Assembly (NCBI RefSeq): GCF_024223415.1
Contig: NZ_CP100500.1
Reading direction: 5' to 3' (one strand)
DNA from: Escherichia coli
Lineage (GTDB): Bacteria; Pseudomonadota; Gammaproteobacteria; Enterobacterales; Enterobacteriaceae
Length of the DNA stretch: 64,000 nt
Below the pieces are notes generated by a model, which worked only from the letters and a program-made list of their open reading frames with translations, was not told the origin of the DNA and did not search any database. Of the stretch, positions 3,790 through 41,829 are shown one piece after another. The position numbers and the translations under genes were made by a program. Positions within the stretch are counted from its first letter, which is position 1; each line of letters starts with the position of its first letter.

Positions 3790-4499
3790 AAATTGAATTA
3801 ACGGTGAATGGGCTGAACGTGCAAGCGCAGTACCATGATGAAGAGATAGAACGCGTGCATAAACCGTTGCTGCGTATGCTGGCGGCCTTACAGACGGTAA
3901 ATCCGCAGCGCCGAACCGTGGTTTTTCTTTGCGCTCCGCCGGGGACGGGGAAATCTACCCTAACCACCTTCTGGGAATACCTCGCGCAACAAGACCCGGA
4001 ACTGCCCGCTATTCAGACGCTGCCGATGGATGGTTTTCACCATTACAATAGCTGGCTGGATGCGCATCAATTGCGCCCCTTCAAAGGCGCACCAGATACA
4101 TTCGATGTGGCGAAACTGGCGGAAAATCTGCGCCAGGTAGTGGAAGGGGATTGTACGTGGCCGCAATACGATCGACAAAAGCATGATCCGGTTGAAGATG
4201 CGTTGCACGTTACCGCACCACTCGTCATCGTCGAAGGAAACTGGTTGTTGCTGGACGACGAGAAGTGGTGCCAGCTTGCGCAATTTTGTGATTTCTCGAT
4301 CTTTATCAACGCGCCAGCTACTGCGTTGCGGGAACGACTGGTAGGGCGCAAGCTGGCGGGAGGGGTATCGCTGGCAGATGCAGAAGCTTTTTATGACCGT
4401 ACCGACGGGCCGAATGTTCGCCGGGTGCTGGAAGAGAGTCTGCCTGCAAATTTGACTTTAATGATGACCGCTACGGGTGAATATCGTCTGGTGGATTAA
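3786..4499 (+). CDS. yggC: P-loop nucleoside/pantothenate-kinase-like protein
   Basis: 237-aa ORF with Walker A motif PPGTGKST; overlaps yggD stop. Confidence 0.85.
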   Translation: MKIELTVNGLNVQAQYHDEEIERVHKPLLRMLAALQTVNPQRRTVVFLCAPPGTGKSTLTTFWEYLAQQDPELPAIQTLPMDGFHHYNSWLDAHQLRPFKGAPDTFDVAKLAENLRQVVEGDCTWPQYDRQKHDPVEDALHVTAPLVIVEGNWLLLDDEKWCQLAQFCDFSIFINAPATALRERLVGRKLAGGVSLADAEAFYDRTDGPNVRRVLEESLPANLTLMMTATGEYRLVD

Positions 4500-5148
4500 C
4501 GTTCCTGATTAGACCATCTTCCAGTCGCACCACACGAGAGAAATGACGCCGGGTAAATGCGGCGTCATGACTGATTGCTACGACGCTCGTGCCTCGCTGG
4601 CGGCACTTCTCCAGCCAGCTTTCAAACACGCTCAACCAATTTTCGTCAAAATCCCGACTCGGCTCGTCCAGCAGCAATAGTGGCGGAGAGAGTGCTTCCA
4701 GGCAGGCGACGGCGACCATCCGTCGCTGCGCACTATGCAGATCCAACGGGTGCGCGTTGGCAGTGTCTGCTAACTGACAACATTGCAGGGCAGCATGGGT
4801 ACGTTGAGTGATTTCATCCGCCGGGCATTTTTGCAGTTTCAAACCAAATGCGATCTCGTCAGCGACGGTGCTGTGAAAAAGTTGGTTTTCCGCTTCCTGA
4901 AACAGTACGCCAATCTTTGCCGCGCGCTGGCGGTTTTTCAGGTTTTTCATCGCCTGTTGTTGCAGCATAACCGTACCGGCTGTGGGCGTAAGAAGACCTG
5001 CCATTACTCGTAACAGCGTCGATTTCCCTGCGCCATTGTCGCCGGTCAGCGCCAACCATTCACCTTGTTTGAGTTGCAGAGAAATGTCGCAAAGACAATC
5101 CGTTGCCGCGCCAGGCCAGCGATAAGATATCTGATTTAACGTTAACAT
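4471..5148 (-). CDS. ECF/ABC transporter ATPase, second subunit, degenerate signature motif
   Basis: Walker A GDNGAGKST, Walker B LLLLDEP, H-loop ISHD, but LHSAQRR in place of LSGGQ; ATG at 5148 lies 1 nt upstream of the stop of the preceding ATPase gene (ATGnTAA); 3' end overlaps yggC convergently. Confidence 0.7.
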   Translation of the reverse strand: MLTLNQISYRWPGAATDCLCDISLQLKQGEWLALTGDNGAGKSTLLRVMAGLLTPTAGTVMLQQQAMKNLKNRQRAAKIGVLFQEAENQLFHSTVADEIAFGLKLQKCPADEITQRTHAALQCCQLADTANAHPLDLHSAQRRMVAVACLEALSPPLLLLDEPSRDFDENWLSVFESWLEKCRQRGTSVVAISHDAAFTRRHFSRVVRLEDGLIRNVNPPDDIHP

Positions 5149-5825
5149 AGTGGCTGGAGCGCTCCGTTTTGCAATTGCCACGCTTGCTGGCAGTAGTTCA
5201 GGAAAGGTGTGCGATGACGTTCAAAAAGAATAATCAGCGAACCACGTTCAAACGCCCAGTGTTGTAAGCGCTGCAACAGCATTTCGCTGGCCTGCGGCGT
5301 CAGGCGGCTAAAGGCTTCATCAAGAATTAATAGCTTTGGCTGCATCGCGATGGCGCAGGCGATGACCACGCGCTGTGTCTCTCCACCGGAGAGTGTTGCC
5401 GGGTGACGATGGCGCAACGGCTGGCACTCGGTCAGAGTCAGGGCGGCATCAATCCGAGCCATAATCTCTGCTTCAGCAAGACACAGATTTTCTGGCCCAA
5501 AGGCAACTTCTTCTTCCACGCTAAAGGTACAGCCGGAGAGCTGCAAATAGGGCGATTGCTGGACGAGCTGGATGGTGGCGGATTGTTCATTAAGCGGGAG
5601 ATGCCCAATGGGCGTACCGAGGAGCGTCCCCGTGCCTGTTATCTCTCCTGGCAGAAAGTCCGGATACCAGCCCGCCATCAGCTGTGCCAGCGTACTTTTG
5701 CCACTGCCGTTGTCACCAAAGATGGCGACCATCCCCGGTTTGACATAGTGAAAGTCATAACAGAACGGAGGATGTGTTGAGTGTGTCGGGCAATAACGGA
5801 ACTGTTCTAACGTAACCATATCCAC
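5142..5825 (-). CDS. ECF/ABC transporter ATPase, first subunit
   Basis: Walker A GDNGSGKST, canonical signature LSGGETQR, Walker B LLILDEA. Confidence 0.75.
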   Translation of the reverse strand: MDMVTLEQFRYCPTHSTHPPFCYDFHYVKPGMVAIFGDNGSGKSTLAQLMAGWYPDFLPGEITGTGTLLGTPIGHLPLNEQSATIQLVQQSPYLQLSGCTFSVEEEVAFGPENLCLAEAEIMARIDAALTLTECQPLRHRHPATLSGGETQRVVIACAIAMQPKLLILDEAFSRLTPQASEMLLQRLQHWAFERGSLIILFERHRTPFLNYCQQAWQLQNGALQPLC

Positions 5826-6514
5826 GCTCCGAATTCTGTCAGCATCAGCAAGATCATGGTGTAACGCGCTACGCGTTGTAGGGTGCTATCGGCTGGTGCC
5901 CACAACGTTGTTCGTCGATTGTGGATCCGAAATGCCCGCATATCCAGCGCCGCACCACGGACAGCAAGATCGTTTAGCGCATTGTGTGTTAGCGGAATAA
6001 TTAACGCGGGCATCGCACGTAAACGCTGATACCAGCCCTCATCCAGCGGCACGCCGCGGGCACGCTGCGCTTCATGAATAATCGCTAATTGCCGTTTTAA
6101 CTGCTCAACGACCAATAACGGCCCGGCAAACAGATAAGCGACGCCTGGCGGCAGGCGAGAAGCAAACAGAGCGCGGATAAAACATTGCACGGGGACGTAC
6201 TGCATCCACAACTGTGAGGTTGAAACAATCGCCAGAATCCGCAACCAGAGCGTAATAGCATGCGTCCAACGCTCCGGCGAACGCGGCGTGCCGCTTAGCC
6301 ATTCTGTTAGCCAGCCACCGTGTACCAGCCACAGCCCGGCTCCCAGCGAGAACATCAGCCAGACGACATATTTTGCCCGCCGCCGCGTGGCCTTTAGCGC
6401 AATAAGGCAGAAAAAGGTCGCCGCGCTATAGATCGGCAAAATGGTCTGCGCGGGCAGGATAAGCGTGGTGCAGGCCGCCAATGCCCACAGTGTTAATGAG
6501 GTAAATGGATGCAT
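5807..6514 (-). CDS. ECF transporter transmembrane T component (CbiQ/EcfT-like)
   Basis: Hydrophobic 235-aa protein with Ala-Arg-Gly motif (EAQRARGVP); start ATG directly abuts stop of upstream S gene (TAAATG). Confidence 0.65.
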   Translation of the reverse strand: MHPFTSLTLWALAACTTLILPAQTILPIYSAATFFCLIALKATRRRAKYVVWLMFSLGAGLWLVHGGWLTEWLSGTPRSPERWTHAITLWLRILAIVSTSQLWMQYVPVQCFIRALFASRLPPGVAYLFAGPLLVVEQLKRQLAIIHEAQRARGVPLDEGWYQRLRAMPALIIPLTHNALNDLAVRGAALDMRAFRIHNRRTTLWAPADSTLQRVARYTMILLMLTEFGAWIWLR

Positions 6515-7093
6515 TTAGCGCACGGCAGCCATTGCCGGAAAATGGCGCGTGGTGCGAATCGGCAGCTGGCGCAGTAAAAGCCAGACAATCACCGCTGTAA
6601 GAGTTTTATCGACCAGGTTCGCGCCTATCACCGTAATCGCCACCGACTCCACCAGGTTTTGCCCCATCGAGTGCATCCAGGCAACGAACAAATCGGCTCC
6701 GCTACCGGTGACACCGCCGAACAGCGCAGTACGCAGCGGTACAGCGACGACCGTTACCGCAAGCGTAATAATCACGCCGCTGACAACGACTTTTGGCAGG
6801 GTGCGGAACCAACCCGCTCGCGCCAGCCAACCGGCGACCAGGCCGATGACCATCGCCACGGGCGCAAATGCGGCGGCGATCGGGTCGGTCAGCAATCCCC
6901 AGAGTAAATTGGTCAGTAAACCGGTCAGCATCCCGATCACCGGACCAAGCAGTACCGCGCTAATAAGTGTGCCGATGGAGTCGAGAAATATAGGTAATTT
7001 GACCATGCTGGCCAGTTGCCCGCCGATCATATTGATGGCGATAGATATAACGATTAACACCAGCGCCTGACTGGAAAAGTGGCTACGCGCCAT
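6515..7093 (-). CDS. small integral membrane protein, candidate ECF substrate-specific S component
   Basis: About 192 aa of mostly hydrophobic helices; preferred start ATG 7093 with GAGAGG Shine-Dalgarno upstream (track ORF extends to 7192); position immediately upstream of T and A genes. Confidence 0.55.
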   Translation of the reverse strand: MARSHFSSQALVLIVISIAINMIGGQLASMVKLPIFLDSIGTLISAVLLGPVIGMLTGLLTNLLWGLLTDPIAAAFAPVAMVIGLVAGWLARAGWFRTLPKVVVSGVIITLAVTVVAVPLRTALFGGVTGSGADLFVAWMHSMGQNLVESVAITVIGANLVDKTLTAVIVWLLLRQLPIRTTRHFPAMAAVR

Positions 7094-7115
7094 AAGAAAA
7101 CCTCTCTGAAAGTAG

Positions 7116-7547
7116 TTATTTAACGGGGGAAATATGCAACTCGTCGTAACCAGAAAGCGCGCAAGGTTGGCGGCTAAACGCCAGTTCCTCAAGGCTACCG
7201 ATCACCAGTTCAAGCGTGGTCCGCACGGTACAGCCGGGCATCATATGACCGCCAAGCATCGTGCCGTGTGGATCGGAAACGCAGAGATGAAGATGCTCAC
7301 CACTCTGTTCCAACGTGCCGTTTAGTGAGATCACTTCGAATGTACCGTTCAGGAGCGTGGTGCCTTCTTGCCCGGCATAGCGCAAGGCGATGTCAGTCAG
7401 GCTACCGGTACAGCCTGCAATCCAGGCGGCATGAAGTTGCTGCTGCTGTGCAAAAGCGTGTAGCTGGGAAAAAACTTCCTGCCCGGGGAGGAGGCGCAGT
7501 GCGTAAAAGCGTGCGGAGGAAGAATATGGGTAGGGCAATGTCATCAT
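7116..7547 (-). CDS. small soluble protein, possibly DUF296/PPC-domain family
   Basis: 143-aa ORF, first gene of the minus-strand operon; family assignment from memory of sequence character only. Confidence 0.45.
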   Translation of the reverse strand: MMTLPYPYSSSARFYALRLLPGQEVFSQLHAFAQQQQLHAAWIAGCTGSLTDIALRYAGQEGTTLLNGTFEVISLNGTLEQSGEHLHLCVSDPHGTMLGGHMMPGCTVRTTLELVIGSLEELAFSRQPCALSGYDELHISPVK

Positions 7548-7918
7548 TGGAGTACTCCGAAACTCGGACGTATTGCGGATAATATCGACGCTGCATCAGT
7601 CATATTCTGATATAAGTCAGGGTTTGTGACGGCACAACGAAAAGATTTTGCTACGCTTATTCGTGATTCTGCAAAGTGGAATAAATTCCACAGGGGCGGG
7701 GCTGAAAACGTGACGTAAGTCAGATAATTGTCTTCTTTGACTGGACAATCATTCCTTTTATTCCACGTTTCGCTTATCCTAGCTGAAGCGTTTCAGTCGA
7801 TTAAATGTTCGACAATTAACCAATCAGTCGCAGTTTGCGACAGGTAAGGTTTCCCCGGACGATTTGCTGGATTACTCTGTCTGGCAAATTTGCTCAGGGA
7901 AAACCTTGCAGGAGATCT

Positions 7919-11509: not shown

Positions 11510-11610
11510 GCCTGATGCGCTACGCTTATCAGGCCTACACGTATCCTGCAATATATTGAATTCGCAGGTTTTTGTAGGCCGGATAAGGCGTTCACGCCGC
11601 ATCCGGCATG
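11510..11610. repeat. BIME: two REP palindromic units in opposite orientation
   Basis: gcctgatgcgctacgcttatcaggcctac and gtaggccggataaggcgttcacgccgcatccggcatg. Confidence 0.8.
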
Positions 11611-11803: not shown

Positions 11804-12679
<876 letters not shown>

Positions 12680-12688
12680 TCATGTGAA

Positions 12689-12711
12689 GCGCCCATGAAA
12701 TTCATGGGCGC
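12689..12711. terminator. hairpin gcgcccatg-aaatt-catgggcgc between convergent mscS and downstream gene
   Basis: Perfect 9-bp inverted repeat; no strong T tract on either side. Confidence 0.4.
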
Positions 12712-12720
12712 ACTACCAAT

Positions 12721-13764
12721 TTAACGCATTGTTTCATCAAGTATATTGGCAACTTTTTGCATGACTTCCCCGGCATTATCCACGCCTTCAGTTTTTTGCT
12801 GTTCTACCCACTGCGTTTGCTCTTGCTGATAACCAATCGCTTTCTGCCAGGCGTCCAGCTCTGATTTTTTCAAATAGCGAACCTGTGCACCTTCCTGCTC
12901 AAGCGTTTTTACCATGCTGATCAGGTTGTTATCTAATGCCTTGCCCAGCGCTTTCTCGGTTGTAATGGCCGCTCGTTGAATAGCCTCACGATCTCTGTTA
13001 TCAAGGTTTTCCCACGTTTGTTTATTCATTACCAACAGATAAACATGACCAAGCCAGAGCGAAGGGGAGAGCAACACATTCGGCGCAGCACGTTCAGCAT
13101 GGATGTCATATCCGCTATCAAGATTGACCATTAAGCCATCGAGTTGTCCGTCGCGGAGTGCTGTCGTAATTTGCTCATTCCACGGTAAGGTTACGGTTTT
13201 TGCCCCCGTATGAGTTAAATAAGCCCGGTGCCAGAAACTGGCTGTTCGCCAGGTGGTTCCCTGAAGTGCAGTCAATTTATCAATGGGCCTGGTAGAGAAA
13301 AAGCCTACCGGGTAGCCAAGGAAAAACTGTAAATTCACGATATTGTTACGCTCAAGTTCAGCGTTAAACTCGGGAATTTCCGCATATACGCGACGAAAGA
13401 ATTCTACCTGACTGGCTCCATGATCCGGGCCAATAGCAAAGCTCTTGAAGATTTGATGAAGCGGTAATTGTTTCGCTGTGTATTCCGGTACCACTATACC
13501 CATATCAGCTTTGCTACCATCACTTATTGTCGTCAGAGCGTCATAGCTGATGGCGGTTTCACCGTTCCAGTGTGGTTCGATTTTCAAACGCCCCTGCGAC
13601 TCTTTTTCAATTTCTGCAAAAAATATCTCTTTAATTATTTGTGTACGCATTCCCCCGTAGGGTTCATGGTCTGTATAACGAAGAATTTTTTCAGCGGCAA
13701 CGTTGTGGGAAGATATCAGAAGTAATCCTGATACCAGAGAAAGTAAAAAGTGTTTGAATGTCAT
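12721..13764 (-). CDS. secreted DctP-like (TRAP-type) solute-binding protein, orphan
   Basis: Signal-peptide-like N-terminus MTFKHFLLSLVSGLLLISSHNVAA when started at ATG 13764 (track ORF starts 13806); FFAEIEKESQGRLKIEPHWNG resembles the conserved N-terminal region of DctP-family binding proteins as I recall it; no permease genes adjacent. Confidence 0.55.
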   Translation of the reverse strand: MTFKHFLLSLVSGLLLISSHNVAAEKILRYTDHEPYGGMRTQIIKEIFFAEIEKESQGRLKIEPHWNGETAISYDALTTISDGSKADMGIVVPEYTAKQLPLHQIFKSFAIGPDHGASQVEFFRRVYAEIPEFNAELERNNIVNLQFFLGYPVGFFSTRPIDKLTALQGTTWRTASFWHRAYLTHTGAKTVTLPWNEQITTALRDGQLDGLMVNLDSGYDIHAERAAPNVLLSPSLWLGHVYLLVMNKQTWENLDNRDREAIQRAAITTEKALGKALDNNLISMVKTLEQEGAQVRYLKKSELDAWQKAIGYQQEQTQWVEQQKTEGVDNAGEVMQKVANILDETMR

Positions 13765-13818
13765 CTCAGTTCCATCTGTAATTTTATTGGTCGTCATTAA
13801 TATCAAAAACCGTGAACT

Positions 13819-14748
13819 TTAACAACTAAAATCGAACTTCATATTTTTAAAGTCCAGCCACGCATTGCCAGTACCAAAATTATACCCGCCGAAGTATTCT
13901 TCAAATTCAATATAAAAAGGTGACATTCCATCTGGTATAGATTGAAATGGAACCATTGAACCACCGAGATGATCGGGTTGATGTGCACTATGCCACTGGT
14001 GAGTTTCACATTTACTCTTTCCCTCTGCATCTTTAGAAAAATAACGAATGGACTGATATTCCGTATTATTTCTTTCTGTGGGGCTAATTCCCGCATTAGG
14101 ATCAAAAGCGCGCGGCTTACATGAAATCGCCAGATTGAAAGCCAGCGACTGCTCAGGAATGGTGCCCATTTTACGGTATACAAAATTGCTTTCAGGCGTA
14201 TCTTTTGGTCTGACGCTTGCCTGAAAATAACTAAACGCACTGCCGGTGGTCATCCATTCTGGTGTATCTTGCTGGTTGCGATAGTGATTAGGTATAAGTT
14301 CAGGCGGTTCACAAAATGGGCCGTTGAACTCTTGCTGGGTGAGTAAAATCACCGCATAAGAACAACCTAATATATCTTCCATCCGAAATAGCCGTGGATG
14401 TCGTTGCTTTTCTGCCAGCCAGAAAACATAAAGGTCTGGATCTTCGGGGGGGGTGCAGGACTCGAAACTCTCAAACACATCCAATATTTCTTCTGTACAT
14501 GGTGTTCTGCCATCGTTGTGCTCGGGCGCAACAGCAAAGAAAGATAACGCGACAATCTCTGGCCCATAAATCCGATAATCTTCTGGCAACAACAGGGTAA
14601 ATCCATGATTCAATGGGAAACCATTATTTGGATCCAGCGGCCACTGTTCGGGCGTTATGCCTGGCGGTAGGCCAAAGCACCAACCTTGTTGGCGCGGTAT
14701 ATTTTCGCGAATAGGATGGGGCAAGAGGGTAAGATCATAAGCATGCAT
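13819..14748 (-). CDS. hypothetical cytoplasmic protein, 309 aa, unknown function
   Basis: ATG at 14748 preceded by AAGGA Shine-Dalgarno; no signal peptide or transmembrane segment evident; hand-counted 60-nt stretches give roughly 37-40% GC versus about 50% in neighbouring genes. Confidence 0.6.
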   Translation of the reverse strand: MHAYDLTLLPHPIRENIPRQQGWCFGLPPGITPEQWPLDPNNGFPLNHGFTLLLPEDYRIYGPEIVALSFFAVAPEHNDGRTPCTEEILDVFESFESCTPPEDPDLYVFWLAEKQRHPRLFRMEDILGCSYAVILLTQQEFNGPFCEPPELIPNHYRNQQDTPEWMTTGSAFSYFQASVRPKDTPESNFVYRKMGTIPEQSLAFNLAISCKPRAFDPNAGISPTERNNTEYQSIRYFSKDAEGKSKCETHQWHSAHQPDHLGGSMVPFQSIPDGMSPFYIEFEEYFGGYNFGTGNAWLDFKNMKFDFSC

Positions 14749-14759
14749 TGTGTGAGTCC

Positions 14760-14951
14760 TTTATAAAGCGAGGCCGTAATGGCCGTAGCACGATTCCTGT
14801 GAGCGATATTGTTATCCAAAAAATAGCCACGCATCCTGACTGTTCGTTTTTTTATTAATATTATTAATATGCTATTAAAAATATCCATTTCCGCTAATGA
14901 TGCTCACACGCTATAGTCTGCAAATCAGATAATTAGCTCGGAATAAATTAC
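14760..14951 (+). promoter_or_regulatory. argO upstream control region (expected ArgP/Lrp-regulated promoter)
   Basis: AT-rich intergenic stretch upstream of the argO GTG start; individual sites not resolved. Confidence 0.4.
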
Positions 14952-25343: not shown

Positions 25344-26576
25344 ATGGCAAAGGTATCGCTGGAGAAAGACAAGATTAAGTTTCTGCTGGTAGAAGGCGTG
25401 CACCAAAAGGCGCTGGAAAGCCTTCGTGCAGCTGGTTACACCAACATCGAATTTCACAAAGGCGCGCTGGATGATGAACAATTAAAAGAATCCATCCGCG
25501 ATGCCCACTTCATCGGCCTGCGATCCCGTACCCATCTGACTGAAGACGTGATCAACGCCGCAGAAAAGCTGGTCGCTATTGGCTGTTTCTGTATAGGAAC
25601 AAACCAGGTTGATCTGGATGCGGCGGCAAAGCGCGGGATCCCGGTATTTAACGCACCGTTCTCAAATACGCGCTCTGTTGCGGAGCTGGTGATTGGCGAA
25701 CTGCTGCTGCTATTGCGCGGCGTGCCGGAAGCCAATGCTAAAGCGCACCGTGGCGTGTGGAACAAACTGGCGGCGGGTTCTTTTGAAGCGCGCGGCAAAA
25801 AGCTGGGTATCATCGGCTACGGTCATATTGGTACGCAATTGGGCATTCTGGCTGAATCGCTGGGAATGTATGTTTACTTTTATGATATTGAAAATAAACT
25901 GCCGCTGGGCAACGCCACTCAGGTACAGCATCTTTCTGACCTGCTGAATATGAGCGATGTGGTGAGTCTGCATGTACCAGAGAATCCGTCCACCAAAAAT
26001 ATGATGGGCGCGAAAGAAATTTCACTAATGAAGCCCGGCTCGCTGCTGATTAATGCTTCGCGCGGTACTGTGGTGGATATTCCGGCGCTGTGTGATGCGC
26101 TGGCGAGCAAACATCTGGCGGGGGCGGCAATCGACGTATTCCCGACGGAACCGGCGACCAATAGCGATCCATTTACCTCTCCGCTGTGTGAATTCGACAA
26201 CGTCCTTCTGACGCCACACATTGGCGGTTCGACTCAGGAAGCGCAGGAGAATATTGGCCTGGAAGTTGCGGGTAAATTGATCAAGTATTCTGACAATGGC
26301 TCAACGCTCTCTGCGGTGAACTTCCCGGAAGTCTCGCTGCCACTGCACGGTGGGCGTCGTCTGATGCACATCCACGAAAACCGTCCGGGCGTGCTAACTG
26401 CGCTGAACAAAATCTTCGCCGAGCAGGGCGTCAACATCGCCGCGCAATATCTACAAACTTCCGCCCAGATGGGTTATGTGGTTATTGATATTGAAGCCGA
26501 CGAAGACGTTGCCGAAAAAGCGCTGCAGGCAATGAAAGCTATTCCGGGTACCATTCGCGCCCGTCTGCTGTACTAA
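25344..26576 (+). CDS. serA: D-3-phosphoglycerate dehydrogenase
   Basis: 410 aa, MAKVSLEKDKIKFLLVEGVHQ, NAD-binding GIIGYGHIG. Confidence 0.95.
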   Translation: MAKVSLEKDKIKFLLVEGVHQKALESLRAAGYTNIEFHKGALDDEQLKESIRDAHFIGLRSRTHLTEDVINAAEKLVAIGCFCIGTNQVDLDAAAKRGIPVFNAPFSNTRSVAELVIGELLLLLRGVPEANAKAHRGVWNKLAAGSFEARGKKLGIIGYGHIGTQLGILAESLGMYVYFYDIENKLPLGNATQVQHLSDLLNMSDVVSLHVPENPSTKNMMGAKEISLMKPGSLLINASRGTVVDIPALCDALASKHLAGAAIDVFPTEPATNSDPFTSPLCEFDNVLLTPHIGGSTQEAQENIGLEVAGKLIKYSDNGSTLSAVNFPEVSLPLHGGRRLMHIHENRPGVLTALNKIFAEQGVNIAAQYLQTSAQMGYVVIDIEADEDVAEKALQAMKAIPGTIRARLLY

Positions 26577-26597
26577 TTCCCCTTCTCTGAAAATCAA

Positions 26598-26627
26598 CGG
26601 GCAGGTCACTGACTTGCCCGTTTTTTT
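26598..26627 (+). terminator. serA rho-independent terminator
   Basis: gggcaggtc-act-gacttgccc hairpin followed by T7. Confidence 0.75.
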
Positions 26628-26764
26628 ATCCCTTCTCCACACCGTTGCCGCGTTGCGCATTCTACTTTGCGAGTCTGCTCCAGAAAATAAATCAAAGTCA
26701 GATCAATGCGTTGTGTTTATTTAATGGGGATTTACGATGGCGGGACAGCACAGGGCTGTAACGC

Positions 26765-26905
26765 TAAAGCCCTCACCGAAGCGAGGGCTTGAAGGAGAAG
26801 GGTTATGATGCGACTTGTCATCATACTGATTGTACTGTTACTCATAAGTTTCCCAGCTTATTAACAGTCAGTCTCAGGGGAGGAGTCATCCTCCCTTACC
26901 CTTAC
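26765..26905 (-). ncRNA. sibC: Sib antitoxin sRNA antisense to ibsC (ends approximate)
   Basis: Minus-strand sigma70-like promoter TTGACA (26940-26935), 18-nt spacer, TAATTT (26916-26911) downstream of the ibsC stop; known ibs/sib architecture. Confidence 0.55.
26805..26864 (+). CDS. ibsC: type I toxin, Ibs-family hydrophobic peptide (19 aa)
   Basis: atgatgcgacttgtcatcatactgattgtactgttactcataagtttcccagcttattaa encodes MMRLVIILIVLLLISFPAY; GAAGGAGAAG Shine-Dalgarno upstream; below the length cutoff of the ORF track. Confidence 0.75.
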   Translation: MMRLVIILIVLLLISFPAY

Positions 26906-26964
26906 TCACTAAATTAGGTTAAAGAATCAACGATGTCAATCAGGGCGATGCAGGTGTGTCGCCC

Positions 26965-27513
26965 TTACCACTCCCAGACTTTCGACGGTGTAATCACCGC
27001 AGGCAGTGGGATATCCCACTCTTCAGTGGGGAGTTTTTCCACCAACTGACAATCATGCGCATAACCCACCGGTTGCATTTTATAGTGCTGCCAGTTTTGT
27101 AAGGTCCGATCATAAAAACCACCGCCCATTCCCAGGCGCTGACCGTACTCATCAAAGGCGACCAGCGGTGTGATCAACACGTCTAATCGGGAAAGGGGTA
27201 GCACGTCACGCACATCCAATTTTGGCTCATGGATCTTCAACCTGTTCATCACCAGTTCGCTTTGCGGATGGTAATTCAGGAACAGCAAATTACCGGCACT
27301 AAAGGGATGCAAAACTGGAAGATATACGCGCTTACCGGCGCGCCAGAGTTGTTCTATGAGTGGCTGGGTGTCGAGTTCGCCATCAAAAGAGAGGAATACA
27401 GCGACCGTATGTGCCATCACCACCGGGGGATAAGTCATCATCCGGGTAGCGGCTTGTTGACCCATTTCCTGCTGTTGTTCCGGCGTTAACGTACGACGAC
27501 GTTGCCGAATCAT
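26965..27513 (-). CDS. ygfA: 5-formyltetrahydrofolate cyclo-ligase
   Basis: Start chosen at MIRQRRRTLTPEQQ (182 aa); alternative start MTQLPELPL at 27567. Confidence 0.8.
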   Translation of the reverse strand: MIRQRRRTLTPEQQQEMGQQAATRMMTYPPVVMAHTVAVFLSFDGELDTQPLIEQLWRAGKRVYLPVLHPFSAGNLLFLNYHPQSELVMNRLKIHEPKLDVRDVLPLSRLDVLITPLVAFDEYGQRLGMGGGFYDRTLQNWQHYKMQPVGYAHDCQLVEKLPTEEWDIPLPAVITPSKVWEW

Positions 27514-27585
27514 TTTGCGGATTTCTTGTCGGGATAATGTCAGTGGGAGTTCTGGTAGTTGCGTCATGGCTGGTGCCAGATAAGA

Positions 27586-27771
27586 AGGGAATCTCCGAGA
27601 TGCCGCCGCAGGCTGTAACCCTTGAACCCTTGGTTCAAGGTGAATGTGTCGTCGCAGTTTTAAGGCTTCTCGGACGGACCGAGCATGCTCACCAACCGCG
27701 GAGCGCCACATTCTTGTGGTATGAAATATCGGCTCAGGGGACTGGCCCGCTTGCGAACATCTCAGAGAAAT
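27586..27771 (-). ncRNA. ssrS: 6S RNA
   Basis: Reverse complement of AUUUCUCUGAGAUGUUCGCAAGCGGGCCAGUCCCCUGAGCC...GGCAUCUCGGAGAUUCCCU matches over the whole length. Confidence 0.9.
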
Positions 27772-37631: not shown

Positions 37632-37704
37632 GCTTGTTAATAAAGTGCGCTTTGTGTGTCGGATGAAGCGTAAATATAAAATCCTGGAGTTCAATATATG
37701 ACAG

Positions 37705-37740
37705 GAGCGCCAGGCCTGATGAGCGGGGCGCATCAGGCAC
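37705..37740. repeat. REP-like palindrome between convergent gcvP and bglA
   Basis: gccaggcctgatgagcggggcgcatcaggc. Confidence 0.5.
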
Positions 37741-37749
37741 ATCGGGTAA

Positions 37750-40397: not shown

Positions 40398-40927
40398 TGA
40401 ACTGCACCCCAAATGTTGGACATAATCTGACATCTGAAGGTGCAGTTTATGAAACATTCATTTGAAGTAAAACTTGCCGCTGTAAATCATTACCTGGCCG
40501 GTCATGCAGGCATCATTTCTACGGCAAAACTCTTTCAACTTTCTCACACCAGCCTCTCACACTGGATTAATCTTTTTCTTCTTCACGGTCCTCAGGCACT
40601 GGATTGCAGACACAAGCGTAGCTATTCTCCTGAAGATAAACTTTGCGTGGTTCTTTATGCTCTCGGGCATTCTGAGTCTCTACCCCGGGTAGCTGCCCGG
40701 TTTAACATTCCCAGCCACAACATGGTTAAAAACTGGATAAAAGGCTACCGCAAATCTGGTAATGAGGCCTTTATCAGGCGCAGGAAGGAGAAAAGCATGA
40801 CCCGTTCTGATGATACCCATGAAAACGAGGCAAACATGACGCCGGAAGAGATGAAGAATGAGCTGCGTTATCTTCGCGCAGAAAATGCATATCTGAAAGC
40901 CATGCAGGAGCATCTCCTGGAAAAAAA

Positions 40928-41829
<902 letters not shown>

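What the first reader, a model, noticed from the sequence alone, without database searches (positions are those of the whole stretch)
26765..26905. Type I toxin-antitoxin locus ibsC/sibC between serA and ygfA, invisible to the ORF track
A 19-codon ORF with a strong Shine-Dalgarno encodes the hydrophobic peptide MMRLVIILIVLLLISFPAY. On the opposite strand a near-consensus sigma70 promoter (TTGACA, 18-nt spacer, TAATTT) would drive a fully overlapping antisense RNA. This matches the Ibs/Sib family, and the peptide differs by at least one residue from the IbsC sequence I recall.
Basis: partly seen in the sequence, partly recalled or inferred. Interest (0 to 1): 0.4.

Follow-up and report, generated by a model that had tools for sequence, protein, structure and literature searches.

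The report
Known ibsC/sibC toxin-antitoxin locus, common allele
This is the well-known E. coli ibsC/sibC type I toxin-antitoxin pair, a 19-residue membrane toxin gene fully covered by an antisense RNA, sitting in its usual place between serA and fau (ygfA) as a common natural allele, so it is real but ordinary.

Summary
Rfam's SIB_RNA model matches 26789-26939 (-) end to end (136.5 bits against a gathering score of 56, E = 5e-28). The 19-codon ORF at 26805-26864 (+) encodes MMRLVIILIVLLLISFPAY, behind an AAGGAG Shine-Dalgarno 7 nt upstream.

The locus lies between serA and fau (ygfA), as sibC/ibsC does in K-12. Mapped onto the K-12 annotation, SibC is 26763-26903 (-) and the ibsC mRNA is about 26745-26903 (+).

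SibC here differs from K-12 SibC at 6 of 141 positions, all predicted unpaired. Three of them are the triplet G49CU51 changed to UGG, in the apical loop of target-recognition domain 1. This is the same change as codon 17 AGC (Ser) to CCA (Pro). TRD2, the anti-SD domain, is identical to K-12.

This exact ORF occurs in 1199 of 5426 complete E. coli genomes, and PGAP already names it IbsC. The locus is already known and of low interest. A minor side observation is that codon 17, the TRD1 triplet, is hypervariable, and about a third of genomes carry two tandem copies here.

The parts
26763..26903 (-). SibC antitoxin sRNA, 141 nt. The 5' end is the A of AAGGGUAAGGG; the 3' end follows the P7 terminator hairpin.
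   Evidence: Mapped base for base from the K-12 sibC annotation b4446, 135/141 identical. Rfam SIB_RNA hit at 26789-26939 (-), 136.5 bits; that model also spans the promoter. MFE fold -55.3 kcal/mol, z = -5.3, same structure as K-12.
26911..26939 (-). SibC promoter: -35 TTGACA (26939-26934), 17-nt spacer, -10 TAATTT (26916-26911). The transcript start lies 7 nt downstream, at 26903.
   Evidence: Read directly from the sequence. It is identical to K-12 except for one spacer base. It was not flagged by the consensus scan because the -10 matches only 3/6. E-sigmaS binding to the K-12 sibC promoter is reported in PMC4447067.
26805..26864 (+). ibsC ORF: 19 codons plus stop, encoding MMRLVIILIVLLLISFPAY.
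   Evidence: Translation. The identical ORF is annotated as IbsC (WP_071525914.1) in strain SCU-316. It is 18/19 identical to K-12 IbsC. The exact 60-nt sequence occurs in 1199 of 5426 complete E. coli genomes.
26792..26797 (+). Shine-Dalgarno AAGGAG of ibsC, 7 nt upstream of the first ATG.
   Evidence: Sequence. It lies inside the target site of SibC TRD2.
26745..26903 (+). ibsC mRNA as defined for K-12: 159 nt, with an 18-nt 5' overhang beyond the SibC 3' end.
   Evidence: Transferred by homology from primer-extension data and the pairing register G50/G51/G53 with C110/C109/C107 in PMC2943612. That register reproduces exactly in window coordinates. Fold -63.1 kcal/mol, z = -4.9. The natural 3' end is not defined in the paper.
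26711..26738 (+). Putative ibsC promoter: TTGTGT (26711-26716), 16-nt spacer, TACGAT (26733-26738), 6 nt before the inferred +1 at 26745.
   Evidence: This is my inference from the spacing to the K-12 start site. The -10 and its flanks are conserved with K-12. It is a weak match and the consensus scan did not flag it.
26836..26858 (-). TRD1 of SibC (nt +46 to +68, P5 loop). The variable triplet +49 to +51, UGG, is at 26855-26853 and is the reverse complement of codon 17 (CCA).
   Evidence: TRD1 limits are from PMC2943612, mapped. K-12 has GCU here. The triplet lies in the predicted 8-nt apical loop.
26789..26805 (-). TRD2 of SibC (nt +99 to +115, J1/7). This is the anti-SD and anti-start-codon segment.
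   Evidence: Limits from PMC2943612. It is identical to K-12, and positions 107-113 are predicted single-stranded.
26767..26790 (-). SibC P7 terminator hairpin: 10-bp stem, GCUUCGGU-type loop, followed by UUUAGC.
   Evidence: Fold. It is conserved with K-12. The U tract is short (3 U), so the terminator scan did not list it.

Best explanation
This is the chromosomal ibsC/sibC type I toxin-antitoxin module of Escherichia coli, orthologous to K-12 b4665/b4446, in its usual serA-fau intergenic position.

How it works:
- The + strand makes a roughly 160-nt mRNA for IbsC, a 19-residue hydrophobic inner-membrane peptide. Overproduction of IbsC depolarises the membrane and stops growth.
- The - strand makes SibC, a 141-nt RNA perfectly complementary to the SD, the ORF and the 3' region of that mRNA.
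- SibC contacts the mRNA through two independent recognition domains. TRD1 is the P5 apical loop and pairs inside the ORF around codon 17. TRD2 is the single-stranded J1/7 segment and pairs with the SD and start codon.
- Pairing then spreads outward. Translation is blocked and the duplex is degraded; RNase III cleaves it in vitro.

Shown here: the sequence anatomy, the covariance-model match, the synteny, the conserved predicted folds and the allele frequency.

Inferred by homology from K-12 experiments: transcription of both strands, toxicity, and repression.

The copy in the window is a common natural allele. It differs from K-12 in the TRD1 loop triplet (GCU to UGG, which is Ser17 to Pro) and in the P2 loop. 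Because the antitoxin is cis-encoded, cognate complementarity stays perfect.
For: - Full-length SIB_RNA match: 136.5 bits, E = 5.4e-28.
- SibC is 135/141 identical to annotated K-12 sibC, and IbsC 18/19 identical to K-12 IbsC.
- Gene order matches K-12: rpiA-serA-[ibsC/sibC]-fau-ssrS-zapA-ygfB.
- PGAP names the identical ORF IbsC.
- The locus is present in 5425 of 5426 complete E. coli genomes, and this exact ORF in 1199.
- All 6 differences from K-12 SibC fall in predicted unpaired positions (the P2 loop, the P5 loop, the 3' tail), and the MFE structure is unchanged.
- TRD2 is identical to K-12.
- Pro at the equivalent residue occurs in K-12 IbsB (SFPAY) and IbsE (SFPTY). The record annotates IbsE as 'toxic peptide IbsE'.
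- The mechanism (TRD1/TRD2, RNase III cleavage, mRNA degradation, membrane depolarisation) comes from PMC2943612 and the review PMC8309996.
Against: - Nothing in the sequence argues against it.
- No expression or toxicity data exist for this strain or for the Pro17 allele specifically.
- The -10 elements of both promoters are weak matches to consensus.
- In the ibsC mRNA the TRD1 target loop is predicted to shrink from 6 nt (UUCAGC, which contains a YUNR motif) in K-12 to 4 nt (UCCC, no YUNR) here. This could slow the TRD1 kissing contact.
- The window carries one base not seen in any complete genome searched: G at 26766, SibC position 140. The best matches over the 195-nt locus are 99.5% identical.
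Confidence: 0.95

Rival explanations
1. The locus is an inactivated remnant. Ser17 to Pro, in the C-terminal segment needed for IbsC toxicity, would have killed the toxin, leaving SibC as an orphan sRNA.
For: Mutagenesis summarised in PMC8309996 says that residues 6-19, including the C-terminal residues, are needed for toxicity. Proline is a helix breaker. Three adjacent nucleotides changed in one codon.
Against: - The ORF, the SD and both promoters are intact.
- The exact ORF is kept in 1199 complete genomes.
- Paralogs IbsB and IbsE carry Pro at the same place, and IbsE is annotated as toxic.
- Residue 17 is S, P, A, Q or G across the copies examined, so it looks like a tolerant site.
Confidence: 0.04
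2. The allele is a natural specificity switch. The TRD1 triplet change would make this SibC/ibsC pair orthogonal to K-12-type SibC/ibsC, or would create cross-talk with ibsD.
For: - The changed triplet is exactly G49CU51. Han et al. replaced it with SibD's UGC to redirect TRD1 to ibsD.
- UGG here is one base from SibD's UGC.
- In the TRD1 region, the longest uninterrupted match to SibD/ibsD rises from 12 nt (K-12 allele) to 14 nt.
Against: - TRD2 is identical to K-12. Han et al. showed that either TRD alone suffices for repression and that only changing both abolishes it. The two alleles should therefore cross-repress.
- Against the paralogs of the closest genome (SCU-316), TRD1 keeps at least 2 mismatches and TRD2 8-10 mismatched alignment columns, indels included. 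This is well short of the 22-25 bp contiguous helices that gave retargeting.
Confidence: 0.1
3. The ORF and antisense promoter are chance features of a repeated intergenic element (the old 'QUAD' repeat) with no coding or regulatory role.
For: Before 2008 the repeat was catalogued only as an intergenic repeat. The ORF is too short for any statistical gene call.
Against: - The covariance-model match has E = 5e-28.
- All six copies in one genome keep an 18-19-codon hydrophobic ORF in the same register.
- Published toxicity and repression experiments exist for the K-12 ortholog.
Confidence: 0.01

Closest known systems
E. coli K-12 MG1655 sibC (b4446) / ibsC (b4665), type I toxin-antitoxin
   Same: - Same intergenic site, serA-fau.
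- Same length, 141 nt, with 135/141 identity.
- Identical TRD2, terminator, SD and promoter hexamers.
- Identical predicted SibC fold.
- Peptide 18/19 identical.
   Different: - SibC positions 17-18 (P2 loop, UG to GA).
- Positions 49-51 (TRD1 loop, GCU to UGG, which is Ser17 to Pro).
- Position 140 (C to G).
- One base in the Sib promoter spacer and a few in the ibsC 5' UTR.
- The K-12 ORF allele occurs in 2160 complete genomes and this one in 1199.
Tandem two-copy ibs/sib arrangement at serA-fau, e.g. strain 2014C-4423 (NZ_CP027454.1)
   Same: Same locus and same family. The fau-proximal copy has the CCA (Pro17) codon found in the window, and its ORF differs from the window's ORF by 1 nt.
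   Different: - The window has one copy in a 388-nt intergenic region, against 780 nt for the two-copy form.
- The serA-proximal copy has GGA (Gly17) and one TRD2 change.
- The window copy is a patchwork of markers from both copies.
Paralogs SibA/IbsA, SibB/IbsB (yegL-mdtA) and SibD/IbsD, SibE/IbsE (yqiK-hldE)
   Same: Same Rfam family, same architecture and the same 18-19-residue hydrophobic peptide. IbsB and IbsE share the ...SFP.Y C-terminus.
   Different: Different loci. TRD1 differs at 2-7 positions and TRD2 at 8-10 alignment columns. P2 and terminator sequences also differ.
Other E. coli type I systems (hok/sok, ldr/rdl, tisB/istR-1, shoB/ohsC)
   Same: A small hydrophobic membrane toxin repressed by an antisense RNA (PMC2943612; PMC8309996).
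   Different: Sib covers the entire functional mRNA, including the translation initiation region and the ORF. The others are either trans-encoded (IstR-1, OhsC) or overlap only part of the mRNA. There is no sequence relationship.

Membership tests
Sib RNA (Rfam RF00113) / SibC ortholog | Match to the SIB_RNA covariance model above the gathering score | tested here: met
   136.5 bits against a gathering score of 56, E = 5.4e-28, model positions 1-147 of 147.
Sib RNA (Rfam RF00113) / SibC ortholog | Orthologous position between serA and fau (ygfA), as for K-12 sibC | tested here: met
   The flanking genes were identified by collinearity with K-12 and SCU-316.
Sib RNA (Rfam RF00113) / SibC ortholog | Sib secondary structure: P1 closing stem, P2/P5/P6 hairpins, single-stranded J1/7, P7 terminator | tested here: met
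   The MFE fold is identical to that of K-12 SibC, z = -5.3. All 6 substitutions fall at unpaired positions. This is a prediction only; no probing was done.
Sib RNA (Rfam RF00113) / SibC ortholog | TRD1 and TRD2 recognition domains perfectly complementary to the cognate ibs mRNA | tested here: met
   The RNA is cis-encoded, so complementarity is perfect by construction. TRD2 is identical to K-12. TRD1 carries a 3-nt loop change.
Sib RNA (Rfam RF00113) / SibC ortholog | Abundant antisense transcript of about 140 nt | not testable with these tools
   No transcriptome data are available. The promoter hexamers and the start-site context are conserved with K-12.
Ibs toxin family (IbsC) | An 18-19-codon ORF for a highly hydrophobic peptide on the strand opposite Sib and fully inside it, with its own SD | tested here: met
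   ORF at 26805-26864 inside SibC at 26763-26903, with AAGGAG 7 nt upstream.
Ibs toxin family (IbsC) | Sequence similarity to characterised IbsC | tested here: met
   18/19 identical to K-12 IbsC. The identical protein, WP_071525914.1, is named IbsC by PGAP. Pfam and NCBIfam scans could not be run because the peptide is below the tools' length minima.
Ibs toxin family (IbsC) | Toxicity (membrane depolarisation, growth arrest) on overexpression, relieved by the cognate Sib | not testable with these tools
   Known for K-12 IbsC (PMC2943612, PMC8309996). The Pro17 allele was not tested.

The most novel reading that the evidence does not exclude
Codon 17 of ibs, which is the TRD1 apical-loop triplet of Sib, may be a within-species hotspot where all three bases turn over. 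At the serA-fau locus alone it reads GCU, UGG or UCC, and 8 different triplets appear among 9 distinct copies. The peptide tolerates S, P, A, Q or G there, so the RNA-level 'address' is free to diversify. Together with the tandem duplication and collapse seen at serA-fau (two copies in about a third of genomes), this would be ongoing selection for orthogonality between Sib paralogs, visible as allelic variation.
Probability: 0.3. Interest if true: 0.3.

Novelty: already known. Interest (0 to 1): 0.08.

Why it matters
It matters little for discovery. The locus has been characterised experimentally in K-12 since 2008-2010 and is annotated by PGAP in essentially every E. coli genome.

Its practical value is as a positive control. 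A reader working from raw sequence correctly recognised a 19-codon gene and its antisense RNA, which length-thresholded ORF tracks miss.

One point is mildly useful. The natural alleles differ exactly at the TRD1 triplet that was mutated experimentally to change target specificity, so they are ready-made material for testing how Sib/ibs pairs stay orthogonal.

Tried and rejected
- **Consensus scans.** The scan found no sigma-70-like site for either promoter and did not list the SibC terminator. The elements are there but weak: -10 elements at 3/6 and 4/6, and a 3-U tract. The scan is therefore uninformative, not contradictory.
- **Pfam/NCBIfam scans of the peptide.** These were not possible, because 19 aa is below the 20-30 aa minima. 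I relied on identity to annotated proteins instead.
- **Primary papers.** I tried to read Fozo et al. 2008 (PMC2597788) and Mok et al. 2010 (PMC3009890) for toxicity and mutagenesis at residue 17. Neither is held, so I used Han et al. 2010 and a 2021 review.
- **Pseudogene reading (Pro17 kills the toxin).** Rejected on allele frequency and the paralog precedent.
- **Specificity-switch reading of the TRD1 change.** Judged unlikely to matter functionally, because TRD2 is identical to K-12 and either TRD suffices.
- **Origin by a single crossover between the two tandem copies.** The markers are interleaved, so this is not supported. The history cannot be resolved from the few sequences compared.

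Full report
**1. Observation**

- The ORF runs from 26805 to 26864 on the + strand and translates to MMRLVIILIVLLLISFPAY followed by a stop.
- AAGGAG at 26792-26797 lies 7 nt upstream of the first ATG, which is a strong and well-spaced Shine-Dalgarno.
- On the minus strand, TTGACA (26939-26934) is followed after 17 nt by TAATTT (26916-26911).
- The -35 is a perfect consensus match. The -10 matches TATAAT only at T1, A2 and T6, and the generic promoter scan did not flag it.
- The ORF is absent from the mechanical ORF list because the list starts at 20 aa.

**2. Identity**

- An Rfam scan of the whole window gave one SIB_RNA (RF00113) match, at 26789-26939 on the minus strand. It covers all 147 model positions at 136.5 bits, against a gathering score of 56, with E = 5.4e-28.
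- The adjacent 6S RNA (27588-27771, -) fits the K-12 gene order. The flanking ORFs are serA (25344-26576, +) and fau/ygfA (from 26965, -).
- A megablast of the intergenic region found it in 5425 of 5426 complete E. coli genomes. The features under the match were 'ibsC: type I toxin-antitoxin system toxin IbsC' and fau.
- In MG1655 the same site carries sibC (b4446, 141 nt) and ibsC (b4665) between fau and serA.
This SibC is 135/141 identical to K-12 SibC.
- The closest complete genome at this locus is SCU-316, at 99.7% over 391 nt. It has the identical ORF, annotated as IbsC WP_071525914.1.

**3. Anatomy in relation to the published mechanism**

Han et al. 2010 (PMC2943612) made the following findings for K-12:

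- SibC has two independent target-recognition domains.
- TRD1 is nt +46 to +68, in the P5 loop, and targets a site inside the ORF.
- TRD2 is nt +99 to +115, in J1/7. It targets the translation-initiation region and needs the P1 stem.
- Either domain alone represses ibsC. Only changing both abolishes repression.
- Pairing spreads from these contacts, RNase III cleaves the duplex in vitro, and repression leads to mRNA degradation.
- The ibsC mRNA used in that work is 159 nt and has an 18-nt 5' overhang beyond SibC.

In window coordinates this gives:

| Element | Window coordinates |
|---|---|
| TRD1 | 26836-26858 |
| TRD2 | 26789-26805 |
| ibsC mRNA | 26745-26903 |

The published pairing register is ibsC G50, G51 and G53 with SibC C110, C109 and C107. 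It reproduces exactly in window coordinates (and my arithmetic).

A TACGAT hexamer at 26733-26738, 6 nt before the inferred +1 and conserved with K-12, is the likely ibsC -10. This last point is my inference.

The review PMC8309996 summarises that IbsC overexpression depolarises the membrane within minutes. It also reports that residues 6-19 are needed for toxicity.

The sibC promoter is bound by sigma-S RNA polymerase, and SibC is rpoS-dependent at 28 °C in K-12 (PMC4447067). The C immediately upstream of TAATTT fits a sigma-S-favoured -13C. That fit rests on established knowledge and was not tested here.

**4. What differs from K-12**

The six SibC differences are:

| SibC position | Change (K-12 to window) | Location |
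|---|---|---|
| 17-18 | UG to GA | P2 loop |
| 49-51 | GCU to UGG | TRD1 / P5 apical loop |
| 140 | C to G | 3' tail |

- ViennaRNA gives the same MFE structure and the same energy (-55.3 kcal/mol) for both alleles.
- All six changes fall in predicted unpaired positions: the 4-nt P2 loop, the 8-nt P5 apical loop and the 3' tail.
- The 49-51 triplet is exactly G49CU51. Han et al. replaced it with SibD's UGC to redirect TRD1 to ibsD. On the coding strand it is codon 17, AGC changed to CCA.
- TRD2 is unchanged.
- In the ibsC mRNA the predicted TRD1 target loop shrinks from UUCAGC (6 nt) in K-12 to UCCC (4 nt). That removes the YUNR motif Han et al. speculated might seed the contact. This rests on a fold prediction only.

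**5. How common the allele is**

| Query | Complete genomes with an exact match |
|---|---|
| Window's 60-nt ORF | 1199 of 5426 (includes an O127:H6 strain) |
| K-12 60-nt ORF | 2160 |
| Window's full 195-nt locus | none; best 99.5%, one mismatch |

In SCU-316 the single mismatch is at 26766, SibC position 140. That base lies in the 3' tail and looks like a private SNP.

**6. Locus polymorphism**

- About 1870 genomes give two matches. In the two I examined, both matches are tandem ibs/sib copies between serA and fau, in a 780-nt intergenic region.
- The serA-proximal copy ends ...SFGAY (codon GGA). The fau-proximal copy ends ...SFPAY (CCA).
- The window has a single copy in a 388-nt intergenic region. 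Its markers are interleaved between the two tandem copies, so its history is not a simple crossover.

**7. Paralog comparison**

- SCU-316 has six Sib loci: three at yegL-mdtA, two at yqiK-hldE and one at serA-fau. All are full-length Rfam hits.
- Against these, the window's SibC has 2-7 mismatches in TRD1 and 8-10 mismatched alignment columns in TRD2, indels included.
- The nearest non-cognate is the SibD-position copy. In the TRD1 region its longest uninterrupted match is 14 nt, against 12 nt for the K-12 allele.
- Both figures are well below the 22-25-bp helices that gave retargeting in Han et al..
- Across the copies examined, the TRD1 triplet takes eight different values while its flanks (AAGC...GAA) are conserved.
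- The encoded residue 17 is S, P, A, Q or G. K-12 IbsE, annotated as a toxic peptide, has Pro there.

**8. Verdict**

- This is the known ibsC/sibC type I toxin-antitoxin locus, present as a common natural allele.
- Function is inferred by close homology to the experimentally studied K-12 pair. Transcription and toxicity of this allele were not testable here.
- Because TRD2 is identical and either TRD suffices, the allele most likely behaves like K-12's.
- The only mildly new angle is the within-species hypervariability of the TRD1 triplet (codon 17) and the copy-number polymorphism at this site. Strain-to-strain copy-number variation in Ibs/Sib is, to my knowledge, discussed in the literature (Fozo 2012, RNA Biol., listed in the reference list seen and not read here).
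- Interest is low.

Noticed in passing
window 26577-26964; loci L013 and L010: The serA-fau intergenic region varies in copy number across E. coli. About 1870 of about 5420 complete genomes have two tandem ibs/sib modules here, in a 780-nt intergenic region. Their codon 17 is GGA (Gly) in one copy and CCA (Pro) in the other, and they differ by one base in TRD2. The window has a single copy whose markers are a mosaic of the two.
   Followed up: partly
window 26853-26855 (codon 17 of ibsC, SibC nt 49-51): The TRD1 loop triplet takes 8 different values among 9 distinct Sib copies examined, while its flanks are conserved. It is the same triplet Han et al. mutated to switch target specificity. The predicted ibsC target loop here is 4 nt (UCCC) and lacks the YUNR motif present in K-12.
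   Followed up: partly
window 4431-7709: A 3.3-kb segment absent from K-12 lies between epd and yggC. It is an ECF-type transporter cluster: two ECF ATPases, a membrane ORF with no family hit, a CD3073-family S component and a 143-aa ORF with no family hit.
   Followed up: partly
window 12611-14873: A 2.2-kb segment absent from K-12 lies between mscS and argO. It holds a TRAP-type substrate-binding-protein-like ORF (12721-13806, -) and a 309-aa ORF (13819-14748, -) with no NCBIfam match.
   Followed up: partly
window 40398-41829: An IS3-family insertion sequence (orfA 40440-40970, orfB 41075-41797) lies between ygfZ and trhA (yqfA). It is absent from K-12 at this site.
   Followed up: partly
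window 37633-37749: K-12 ygfF, about 1 kb between bglA and gcvP, is replaced by a 117-nt segment that does not align to K-12. The gene appears to be absent from this strain.
   Followed up: no
window 27588-27771 (-) and 26965-27711 (-): 6S RNA (ssrS) is a full-length Rfam hit at 139.8 bits. The mechanical 248-aa ORF at 26965-27711 runs from fau up into ssrS, so the true fau start must be internal (K-12 gives 182 aa, PGAP 200 aa).
   Followed up: partly
window 11531-11573 (-): A small Rfam hit to ES036 (CssrF) sRNA, 42.5 bits against a gathering score of 37.6, lies upstream of mscS in the fbaA-mscS intergenic region.
   Followed up: no
hit H89, NZ_CM183442.1 (strain BHUCD01): This genome is almost exactly the size of MG1655 (4,641,498 bp) and has MG1655-like coordinates for this locus. 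Yet it matches the window's allele at 99.5% rather than the K-12 allele. This may be a reference-guided assembly artefact.
   Followed up: no
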